From IMG/VR virus record IMGVR_UViG_3300023543_000090: 5,343 nt of DNA; one strand, 5' to 3'. Of the stretch, positions 1,858 through 5,256 are shown piece by piece (positions within the stretch are counted from its first letter, which is position 1; every line of letters begins with the position of its first letter). The DNA is from a virus (lineage: Duplodnaviria; Heunggongvirae; Uroviricota; Caudoviricetes). The notes under the pieces were generated by a model. The model was not told the origin of the DNA. It did not search any database and was given only the letters and a program-made list of their open reading frames with translations. The position numbers and the translations under genes were made by a program.

Positions 1858-4800
1858 ATGGGTAAAGGCAGCAGTAAGGGGCATACCCCGCGTGAAGCGA
1901 AGGACAACCTGAAATCCACGCAGTTGCTGAGTGTGATCGATGTCATCAGCGAAGGGCCGATTGAAGGTCCGGTGGATGGGTTAAAAAGCGTGCTGCTGAA
2001 CAGTACGCCGGTGCTGGACAGTGAGGGGAATACCAATATCTCCGGTGTCACGGTGGTGTTCCGGGCAGGTGAGCAGGAGCAGACACCGCCGGAGGGGTTT
2101 GAATCCTCCGGCTCCGAGACGGTGCTGGGTACGGAAGTGAAATATGACACGCCGATCACCCGCACCATCACGTCGGCAAACATCGACCGTCTGCGCTTTA
2201 CCTTCGGTGTGCAGGCACTGGTGGAAACCACCTCAAAAGGGGATCGGAATCCGTCGGAGGTCCGCCTGCTGGTTCAGATACAGCGTAATGGTGGCTGGGT
2301 GACGGAAAAAGACATCACCATTAAGGGCAAAACCACCTCGCAGTATCTGGCCTCGGTGGTGGTGGATAACCTGCCGCCGCGCCCGTTTAATATCCGGATG
2401 CGCAGGATGACGCCGGACAGCACCACAGACCAGCTGCAGAACAAAACGCTCTGGTCGTCATACACCGAAATCATCGATGTGAAACAGTGCTACCCGAACA
2501 CGGCACTGGTTGGCGTGCAGGTGGACTCGGAGCAGTTCGGCAGCCAGCAGGTGAGCCGTAATTATCATCTTCGCGGGCGCATTCTGCAGGTGCCGTCGAA
2601 CTATAACCCGCAGACGCGGCAATACAGCGGTATCTGGGACGGAACGTTAAAACCGGCATACAGCAACAACATGGCCTGGTGTCTGTGGGATATGCTGACC
2701 CACCCGCGCTACGGCATGGGGAAACGTCTTGGTGCGGCGGATGTGGATAAATGGGCGCTGTATGTCATCGGCCAGTACTGCGACCAGTCGGTGCCGGACG
2801 GCTCTGGTGGCACGGAGCCGCGCATCACCTGTAATGCGTACCTGACCACACAGCGCAAGGCGTGGGATGTGCTCAGTGATTTCTGCTCGGCGATGCGCTG
2901 TATGCCGGTATGGAACGGGCAGACGCTGACGTTCGTGCAGGACCGACCGTCGGATAAGGTGTGGACCTATAACCGCAGTAATGTGGTGATGCCGGATGAT
3001 GGCGCGCCGTTCCGCTACAGCTTCAGCGCCCTGAAAGACCGCCATAATGCCGTTGAGGTGAACTGGATTGACCCGAACAACGGCTGGGAGACGGCGACAG
3101 AGCTTGTGGAGGACACGCAGGCCATTGCCCGTTACGGTCGTAACGTCACGAAGATGGATGCCTTTGGCTGTACCAGCCGGGGGCAGGCACACCGCGCCGG
3201 GCTGTGGCTGATTAAAACAGAACTGCTGGAAACGCAGACCGTGGACTTCAGCGTGGGCGCAGAAGGGCTTCGCCATGTGCCGGGCGATGTCATTGAAATC
3301 TGTGATGATGACTATGCCGGTATCAGCACCGGCGGGCGCGTGCTGGCGGTGAACAGCCAGACCCGGACGCTGACGCTCGACCGTGAAATCACGCTGCCAT
3401 CCTCCGGCACCACGCTGATAAGCCTGGTTGACGGTGAGGGTAATCCGGTCAGCGTGGAGGTCCAGTCCGTCACCGACGGCGTGAAGGTAAAAGTGAGCCG
3501 TGTTCCTGACGGTGTTGCTGAATACAGCGTATGGGGGCTGAAGCTGCCGACGCTGCGCCAGCGCCTGTTCCGCTGCGTGAGTATCCGTGAGAACGACGAC
3601 GGCACGTATGCCATCACCGCCGTGCAGCATGTACCGGAAAAAGAAGCCATCGTGGATAACGGGGCGCACTTTGACGGCGACCAGAGCGGCACGGTGAATG
3701 GTGTCACGCCGCCAGCGGTGCAGCACCTGACTGCCGAAGTCACCGCAGACAGCGGGGAATATCAGGTGCTGGCCCGCTGGGACACGCCGAAGGTGGTGAA
3801 GGGCGTGAGCTTCCTGCTTCGCCTGACCGTGGCAGCGGACGACGGCAGTGAGCGGCTGGTCAGCACGGCCCGGACGACGGAAACCACATACCGCTTCAGG
3901 CAACTGGCGCTGGGGAACTACAGGCTGACAGTCCGGGCGGTAAATGCGTGGGGGCAGCAGGGCGATCCGGCGTCGGTACCGTTCCGGATTGCCGCACCGG
4001 CAGCACCTGTCACGATTGAACTGATACCAGGGTATTTTCAGATAACAGCGATCCCGAAACTGGCTGTATATGACCCGACGGTGCAGTTTGAGTTCTGGTT
4101 CTCGGAAAAGCGGATTGCGGATATCAGGCAGGTTGAAACCACAGCCCGCTATCTTGGCACGGCGCTGTACTGGACATCTGCCAGTAGCAATATTAAGCCG
4201 GGTTATGATTATTACTTTTATATCCGCAGCGTGAATACCGTTGGTAAATCGGCATTTGTGGAGGCCGTCGGTCGGGCGAGCGATGATGCGGAAGGTTATC
4301 TGAATTTTTATAAAGGGTTGATCAATAAAACGCATCTCGGCAAGGAGCTACTGGAAAACTTTGAGCTGACGGAAGATAACGCCAGCAAACTGGAGGAGTT
4401 TTCGAAAGAGTGGAAGGACGCCAACGATAAGTGGAATGCCATGTGGGGCGTCAAAATTGAGCAGACCAAAGACGGCAAACATTATGTCGCGGGTATTGGC
4501 CTCAGCATGGAGGACACGGAGGAAGGCAAACTGAGCCAGTTTCTGGTTGCCGCTAACCGTATCGCGTTTATTGACCCGGCAAACGGGAATGAAACGCCGA
4601 TGTTTGTGGCGCAGGGCAATCAGATATTCATGAACGACGTGTTCCTGAAGCGCCTGACGGCCCCCACCATTACCAGCGGTGGAAATCCACCGGCATTTTC
4701 CCTGACACCGGACGGAAAGCTGACTGCTAAAAATGCGGATATCAGTGGCAGTGTGAATGCGAACTCCGGGACGCTCAACAATGTCACGATTAATGAGAAC

Positions 4801-5256
4801 TGTCAGATTAAGGGGAAACTGTCAGCCAATCAGATTGAAGGCGATATTGTCAAAACGGTCAGCAAGTCTTTCCCCCGCACGAACAGTTATGCCAGTGGCA
4901 CCATCACGGTAAGAATCAGTGATGATCAGAAATTTGACCGGCAGGTCATGATACCGCCAGTGTTATTCCGCGGTGGTAAGCATGAGAATTTCAACAGTAA
5001 TAACCAACAGTCATACTGGTATTCAACCTGCCGGTTAAGAGTGACCCGCAATGGTCAGGAGATTTTTAATCAGTCCACGACGGATGCTCAGGGCGTATTT
5101 TCCTCAGTTATAGATATGCCTGCCGGACAGGGGACGCTGACACTGACATTCACCGTATCTTCATCAGGAGCGAATAACTGGACACCAACAACCAGTATCA
5201 GCGATCTGCTGGTTGTGGTGATGAAAAAATCCACAGCAGGTATCAGTATCAGCTGA
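1858..5256 (+). CDS. J: Tail tip / central tail fibre host-specificity protein J (gpJ family), 1132 aa
   Basis: Uninterrupted 3399-nt ORF in frame 1, ATG 1858 to TGA 5254..5256. The N-terminus [28 protein letters not shown]... matches lambda J as I recall it, and the length (1132 aa) is the same. GGAG at 1846..1849 sits 8 nt upstream of the ATG. Position after L-K-I is as in lambda. Confidence 0.95.

What the first reader, a model, noticed from the sequence alone, without database searches (positions are those of the whole stretch)
4700..5256. C-terminal receptor-binding region of J: host-range determinant whose identity to lambda J should be checked
In lambda the C-terminal region of J determines receptor use (LamB). 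The C-terminal sequence here (...[24 protein letters not shown]...[20 protein letters not shown]) does not match my imperfect recollection of the lambda J C-terminus as cleanly as the N-terminus does. If it is diverged, this phage may use a different outer-membrane receptor. I cannot verify this without an alignment.
Basis: inference. Interest (0 to 1): 0.5.

Follow-up and report, generated by a model that had tools for sequence, protein, structure and literature searches.

The report
Known OmpC-binding tip on lambda-like J

Summary
J (window 1858-5256, 1132 aa) is 96% identical to lambda J over aa 1-972 and 100% over aa 865-973. From aa 974 (nt 4777) it drops to about 45%. DNA similarity to lambda stops at nt 4814.

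The divergent part is still a J-type receptor-binding domain (Pfam Ig_GpJ_C, aa 1008-1132). It is not new. Residues 965-1132 are 100% identical to "A8 gpJ", whose structure was solved closed (PDB 9wca) and open bound to E. coli EDL933 OmpC (9wcb). A lambda gpJ chimera carrying this C-terminus from aa 964 delivers DNA into ΔlamB ΔompC cells that carry a plasmid-borne ompC. Delivery depends on the OmpC variant (Brödel et al., Nature 2024).

The cassette is very common. It is ≥99% identical in DNA in 1218 records among 5426 complete E. coli genomes, including Stx1a/Stx2a phages. One O26 prophage carries it on a J body only 75% identical, which shows modular exchange.

The most likely terminal receptor is therefore OmpC, not LamB. 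Additional LamB use is not excluded, because phage 21's domain is 82% identical and uses LamB. Verdict: interpretation supported, already known, low interest.

The parts
1858..5256 (+). Complete J gene (tip attachment / central tail fibre protein), 1132 aa plus stop codon
   Evidence: Intact ORF. 89% identical to lambda J and the same length. Six Pfam gpJ domains are present in order: FNIII-A_GpJ, Phage-tail_3, Ig_J, Ig_J_second, Phage_Tail_Tip, Ig_GpJ_C.
1858..4776 (+). Lambda-like body of J (aa 1-973): hub domains, two Ig/FNIII domains, helical shaft and most of the beta-prism fibre
   Evidence: 96.2% aa identity to lambda over aa 1-972 and 100% over aa 865-973. 94.7% nt identity over window 1-4814.
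4726..4782 (+). Junction zone where the backbone meets the receptor-binding cassette, inside a stretch conserved among J proteins
   Evidence: Last backbone-type mismatch to lambda is at nt 4725; the dense run of mismatches starts at 4778. In the O26 RM10386 prophage and in phage 2H10 the last mismatch before the near-perfect 3' run is at 4782. Brödel et al. placed their engineered fusion point at lambda aa 964, which corresponds to nt 4747-4749.
4777..5253 (+). Divergent C-terminal cassette (aa 974-1132): last rungs of the beta-prism plus the receptor-binding domain; A8-type, OmpC-binding
   Evidence: 44-46% identical to lambda. 100% identical to PDB 9wca/9wcb 'A8 gpJ 713'. Matches the GpJ A8 DNA printed in the supplement of PMC11338833 at 473 of 496 aligned columns; most of the 23 discrepancies look like single-base drop-outs from machine reading of the PDF.
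4879..5253 (+). Ig-like receptor-binding domain proper (aa 1008-1132)
   Evidence: Pfam PF12421 Ig_GpJ_C, 'Tip attachment protein J, C-terminal receptor binding domain', E 4.9e-36, 124 bits against a cut-off of 26.2.
5274..5303 (+). Terminator-like hairpin and T run between J and lom
   Evidence: One site found, against 0.1 expected from shuffles. Phages 21 and 434 have an annotated terminator at the same position.
5323..5343 (+). Start of the lom (Ail/Lom outer-membrane protein) gene, cut by the window end
   Evidence: ATGCGTAAACTTTATGCCGCC encodes MRKLYAA. It coincides with the annotated Ail/Lom CDS start in pCAVP367-48 and in phage 2H10.

Best explanation
J of this lambdoid phage is a natural mosaic. 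A lambda-type tail-tip body (aa 1-973) is joined, within a conserved stretch of the beta-prism fibre, to a different allele of the J receptor-binding cassette (aa 974-1132).

That allele is the 'A8' type. By analogy with lambda gpJ-LamB, its trimeric Ig-like domains should dock onto the trimeric porin OmpC instead of LamB. Binding should spread the distal ends of the three domains. That movement should propagate up the fibre and open the tail tip for DNA ejection.

- Shown here: the mosaic structure, the domain family, and 100% identity to A8.
- Taken from published work and PDB entry descriptions: A8 binds OmpC and supports LamB-independent delivery, and closed and open-with-OmpC states exist.
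- Inferred: the whole natural phage uses OmpC as its terminal receptor, and the triggering mechanism copies lambda's.
For: - Abrupt identity drop at aa 974 / nt 4777-4814.
- Pfam Ig_GpJ_C hit on aa 1008-1132.
- 100% identity of aa 713-equivalent chain positions 883-1132 to PDB 'A8 gpJ 713'. Upstream of about aa 973 that chain carries lambda residues, so it is lambda plus this cassette.
- Entry 9wcb is described as 'Open state of A8 gpJ 713 central tail fiber with OmpC G17 from E. coli EDL933' and 9wca as the closed state. Both show 100% identity over 168 residues. 9wcb holds three OmpC chains.
- Brödel et al. 2024 fused at lambda aa 964. A8 gave 95% delivery into ΔlamB ΔompC cells carrying OmpC-MG1655, against 1.9% for wild-type gpJ.
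- Delivery depends on the OmpC variant: G40 gave 7% at MOI 226 and G56 gave 46%, while most variants gave over 90%.
- The mechanism of RBD spreading followed by fibre rearrangement is described for lambda gpJ-LamB (PMC11101478).
- The cassette is exchanged as a unit. It is 100% identical over nt 4783-5269 in an O26 prophage whose J body is about 75% identical.
Against: - No experiment on this phage itself. Receptor use is transferred from an engineered lambda chimera and a truncated protein.
- The J body differs from lambda at 37 positions, mostly aa 720-864. These could modulate triggering.
- Phage 21's cassette is 82% identical and uses LamB natively. Closely related alleles can therefore differ in receptor.
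- I found no test of A8 on lamB+ ΔompC cells, so additional LamB use is not excluded.
- No paper describing 9wca/9wcb was found in the library. Only the entry titles were available.
Confidence: 0.88

Rival explanations
1. The domain still uses LamB, either as the only receptor or alongside OmpC, as in phage 21 and its evolved dual-receptor descendants.
For: Phage 21's cassette is 82% identical. It uses LamB natively, and a single I1025T change adds OmpC use. I saw no published test of A8 on lamB+ ΔompC cells.
Against: A8 delivers efficiently without LamB, and delivery tracks the OmpC allele supplied. The solved open state is with OmpC. Twenty-nine of 160 positions differ from phage 21. The equivalent of phage 21 I1025 is still Ile here (I997), so OmpC use is not explained by that destabilising route. 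LamB as the sole receptor is effectively excluded. Dual use is merely untested.
Confidence: 0.1
2. The divergence from lambda reflects gradual point-mutation drift of the host-range region under selection, rather than acquisition of a pre-existing cassette.
For: Lambda and phage 21 J evolve new receptor use by point mutations in this region in the laboratory.
Against: Identity falls from 100% (aa 865-973) to about 45%, with indels, within a few codons. DNA similarity to lambda vanishes after nt 4814. The same cassette is 100% identical on a J backbone that is 75% identical. It is also ≥99% identical in 1218 E. coli genome records.
Confidence: 0.02
3. The gene sits in a defective prophage, so the receptor-binding module is a relic that no longer mediates infection.
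For: Many E. coli copies lie in cryptic prophages. The O26 RM10386 copy of J is annotated as frameshifted.
Against: In this window J is an uninterrupted 1132-aa ORF, with intact K, I and lom start. The nearest record (99.1%) is a 47.6-kb stand-alone lambdoid genome with H-M-L-K-I-J-lom-stf. Isolated plaque-forming phages such as 2H10, Turner and PhiR29_2 carry the same cassette at 99.5%.
Confidence: 0.08

Closest known systems
A8 gpJ (lambda gpJ 1-964 fused to a natural E. coli prophage J C-terminus; Brödel et al., Nature 2024; PDB 9wca and 9wcb)
   Same: Residues 965-1132 are 100% identical. The DNA is near-identical apart from a few synonymous changes and OCR drop-outs. It is the same Ig_GpJ_C domain, and its receptor has been shown to be OmpC.
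   Different: A8 is an engineered chimera on a pure lambda body. The window's J is a natural full-length protein whose body differs from lambda at 37 of 972 positions.
Bacteriophage lambda J (LamB-binding; PDB 8xcj, 8xck, 8iyk)
   Same: Same length, domain order and gene neighbourhood. 96% identical over aa 1-972. Same fold family for the receptor-binding domain.
   Different: The last 160 aa are only 44-46% identical, with three indels. Lambda binds LamB and cannot deliver into ΔlamB cells, whereas A8 can.
Phage 21 J (OL657228; native receptor LamB, evolves OmpC and then OmpF use)
   Same: Closest named classical phage allele: 82% identity over the cassette, with the same indel pattern and C-terminal tail [20 protein letters not shown].
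   Different: Twenty-nine of 160 residues differ. Its native receptor is reported as LamB. Phage 21 has no lom between J and stf.
Phage 434 J (classical OmpC-using lambdoid) and Gifsy-1 J (OmpC of Salmonella)
   Same: Lambda-like J proteins whose C-terminal domain targets OmpC.
   Different: The 434 cassette is only 48% identical to this one. The Gifsy-1 C-terminal region is reported as 18% identical to lambda's. OmpC binding therefore occurs in several distinct alleles.

Membership tests
Lambda-type tip attachment protein J (gpJ) | Domain architecture: hub domains, two Ig/FNIII domains, tail tip fibre, and C-terminal Ig-like receptor-binding domain | tested here: met
   Pfam FNIII-A_GpJ, Phage-tail_3, Ig_J, Ig_J_second, Phage_Tail_Tip and Ig_GpJ_C are all above their cut-offs and in order.
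Lambda-type tip attachment protein J (gpJ) | Position in the tail-tip module L-K-I-J followed by lom | tested here: met
   The window is colinear with lambda 13648-18461 at 94.7% nt. Annotated relatives show the same gene order.
Lambda allele of the J receptor-binding domain (LamB-specific) | Near-identity to lambda J aa 973-1132 | tested here: not met
   44-46% identity with indels. No DNA similarity to lambda after nt 4814.
A8-type J receptor-binding domain (OmpC-specific) | Sequence identity to A8 gpJ downstream of the fusion point (aa 965-1132) | tested here: met
   100% over 250 and 168 residues against PDB 9wca/9wcb. Agrees with the GpJ A8 DNA in the paper's supplement.
A8-type J receptor-binding domain (OmpC-specific) | Physical binding to OmpC and OmpC-dependent, LamB-independent DNA entry | not testable with these tools
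   Taken from PDB entry 9wcb and from source data of PMC11338833. Not measured for this phage.
Phage 21-type J receptor-binding domain (LamB native) | Near-identity to phage 21 J aa 1001-1160 | tested here: not met
   82% identity with 29 differences. It is a related but distinct allele.
Phage 434-type J receptor-binding domain (OmpC) | Near-identity to the 434 J C-terminus | tested here: not met
   48% identity.

The most novel reading that the evidence does not exclude
The natural protein may be a dual-receptor binder (OmpC plus LamB), or one or two mutations away from being one. The A8-type and phage-21-type alleles (82% identical, OmpC versus LamB) would then form a natural, minimal receptor-switch pair whose 29 differences define porin choice. 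Nothing I found tests A8 on lamB+ ΔompC cells.
Probability: 0.1. Interest if true: 0.3.

Novelty: already known. Interest (0 to 1): 0.12.

Why it matters
It gives a practical host-range prediction. This phage, and the many E. coli prophages carrying the same cassette (including Stx1a and Stx2a converting phages), should enter through OmpC rather than LamB. Resistance should therefore arise through ompC/envZ-ompR changes or through OmpC allelic variation, not through mal/lamB down-regulation. It also shows how lambdoid phages change receptor by swapping a roughly 480-bp cassette at a conserved junction. Neither point is new: the allele has been used for engineered delivery vectors, and its complex with OmpC has been solved.

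Tried and rejected
- **blastn against lambda beyond nt 4814** found nothing. The comparison had to be made at protein level.
- **Single-sequence AlphaFold2 model of aa 965-1132** was poor (mean pLDDT 52.5). I did not use it for any structural claim, only as a handle to retrieve PDB entry descriptions and dates. The top hits there are driven by 100% sequence identity; the weaker hits (lectins, CBMs) are not meaningful.
- **Literature searches for a paper describing 9wca/9wcb** ('A8 gpJ', 'gpJ713' plus OmpC) returned only the 2024 Nature and Nat Commun papers.
- **A search for receptor studies of long-tailed Stx phages with this J** returned only reviews.
- **My initial recollection that phage 21 natively uses OmpC** was wrong. 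The papers say LamB is native and OmpC is acquired by I1025T.
- **I checked whether this J carries that change.** It does not: I997 is retained.
- **I did not spend the large protein-database searches**, because the identity to a solved, characterised protein settled the question.

Full report
**What is in the window.** The 5343-nt window carries the 3' end of L, then K, I, a complete J (1858..5256, + strand, 1132 aa) and the first 21 nt of lom. It is colinear with lambda 13648-18461 at 94.7% nucleotide identity over window nt 1-4814. After that point blastn finds no similarity to lambda.

**Checking the observation.** J is 89% identical to lambda J overall, but the differences are very unevenly placed.
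- Residues 1-972 are 96.2% identical (935/972).
- Residues 865-973 are 100% identical.
- The first substitution of the terminal block is at aa 974 (nt 4777-4779).
- From there to the end, identity is 44-46% with three indels.

In 90-nt bins, DNA identity falls from 94-98% to 44-58% between nt 4738 and 4828. The one correction is that the diverged block starts near nt 4777 rather than 4700.

**What the diverged block is.** It is still a J-type receptor-binding module. Pfam Ig_GpJ_C ('Tip attachment protein J, C-terminal receptor binding domain') matches aa 1008-1132 at 124 bits, and the five upstream gpJ domains are all present. The block therefore comprises the last rungs of the beta-prism fibre (aa 974-1007) plus the whole Ig-like receptor-binding domain. 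This uses the domain nomenclature of Ge & Wang 2024 (PMC11101478).

**Identity to a characterised protein.** A sequence search of the PDB shows that the last 250 residues are 100% identical to chain J of 9wca/9wcb, 'A8 gpJ 713'. A longer query shows that this chain carries lambda-specific residues up to about aa 973 and then this window's sequence. It is therefore lambda plus exactly this cassette. The entry descriptions, both released 2026-01-28, are:
- 9wca: 'Closed state of A8 gpJ 713 central tail fiber'.
- 9wcb: 'Open state of A8 gpJ 713 central tail fiber with OmpC G17 from E. coli EDL933'.

Entry 9wcb contains three OmpC chains alongside three gpJ chains.

**Functional data for A8.** 'A8' is one of two chimeras made by Brödel et al. 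(Nature 2024, PMC11338833). [quoted passage not shown] The GpJ A8 DNA in their supplement aligns to window 4763-5256 at 473 of 496 columns. Most of the 23 discrepancies look like single-base drop-outs from machine reading of the PDF, plus a few synonymous changes.

Their source data show the following:
- A8 particles deliver to 95% of ΔlamB ΔompC cells complemented with OmpC-MG1655 at MOI 84. Wild-type lambda gpJ reaches 1.9%.
- A8 delivery depends on which OmpC allele is supplied. G40 gave 7% at MOI 226 and G56 gave 46%, while most variants gave over 90%.

All residues that distinguish the OmpC-using chimera from LamB-using lambda gpJ lie in aa 974-1132, and all are identical here. The best-supported inference is that this phage's central fibre binds OmpC.

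**How it most likely works.** For lambda gpJ-LamB, the three receptor-binding domains insert four distal loops into the porin's extracellular face. Their bottoms spread apart, the tops close, and new hydrogen bonds twist the prism. The helical shaft then flips and the hub opens (PMC11101478). The existence of matching 'closed' and 'open with OmpC' states for A8 gpJ713 suggests the same trigger with a different porin. This step is inferred from entry titles. I could not inspect coordinates.

**Origin and distribution.** The cassette behaves as an exchangeable unit.
- It is 100% identical at protein level in Stx1a-converting phages, phage 2H10 and Salmonella phage SPF_0923.
- It is 99.5% identical at DNA level in phages whose remaining window sequence is only about 95% identical.
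- In the O26 strain RM10386 prophage, nt 4783-5269 are 100% identical although the J body is about 75% identical and frameshifted.
- Among 5426 complete E. coli genomes, 1218 records hold nt 4815-5256 at ≥99% identity.

The junction lies between nt 4726 and 4782, inside the block that is identical among J proteins. This is also where the engineers placed their fusion.

**Related alleles and caveats.** Identity of other cassette alleles to this one:

| Allele | Identity |
|---|---|
| Phage 21 | 82% |
| BP-4795 type | 79% |
| A Stx2a-phage type, which resembles the second chimera, 1A2 | 66% |
| Phage 434 | 48% |
| Lambda | 46% |

Phage 21 is reported to use LamB natively and to gain OmpC use through a single I1025T change just above the domain (PMC11336670 and the Borin et al. 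preprint). The equivalent residue here, I997, is unchanged. Phage 434, the classical OmpC user, has a very different allele. Cassette similarity alone therefore does not predict the receptor. The assignment here rests on 100% identity to a tested protein, not on family resemblance. I found no test of A8 on lamB+ ΔompC cells, so extra LamB use remains possible (about 10%).

**Verdict.** The feature is a common, already characterised OmpC-specific allele of the J receptor-binding cassette on a lambda-like backbone. Novelty: already known. Interest: low.

Noticed in passing
window 4018-4377 (J aa ~720-864): Patches of only 80-84% nt identity to lambda lie inside an otherwise 94-99% identical J body. 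Most of the 37 amino-acid differences from lambda in the body fall here, in the second Ig domain and helical shaft. This suggests a further small mosaic segment.
   Followed up: partly
whole window; locus L007 (NZ_CP145143.1, 31231-42573): The nearest record (99.1% over all 5343 nt) is a 47.6-kb linear 'plasmid', pCAVP367-48, of a human E. coli isolate. Its gene order is H-M-L-K-I-J-lom-stf, so it is probably a lambdoid phage genome assembled as a separate replicon. No phage-collection record exceeds 95.6% over the whole window.
   Followed up: partly
L009 (E. coli O26 RM10386, locus 2467-5942): This prophage's J is annotated as a frameshifted pseudogene and is about 75% identical in its body. 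Its receptor-binding cassette and the J-lom spacer are nevertheless 100% identical to the window.
   Followed up: partly
window 5274-5303: A terminator-like GC hairpin followed by a T run lies between J and lom. The phage 21 and 434 records annotate a terminator at the same position.
   Followed up: partly
L005:601-1077 (Stx2a phage Stx2a_JNE122137): The 66%-identity cassette type found in many Stx2a phages has the C-terminal motif [30 protein letters not shown]. This matches the recoded '1A2' chimera in the Nature 2024 supplement, which works with the EDL933 OmpC allele but not the K-12 allele.
   Followed up: no
PMC11338833, Source Data for Extended Data Fig. 2, panels B and C: The A8 and 1A2 columns in panel C (OmpC-EDL933) are number-for-number the same as in panel B (OmpC-MG1655). 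For 1A2 this conflicts with the text, which says it delivers efficiently to the EDL933 variant. It is possibly a copy-paste slip in the source file. The Extended Data Fig. 1 sheet (G17) shows both chimeras working.
   Followed up: no
window 410-1228 and 1126-1797: The K (C40 peptidase) and I reading frames overlap by about 100 nt, as in lambda. Annotated relatives choose different start codons for both genes.
   Followed up: no
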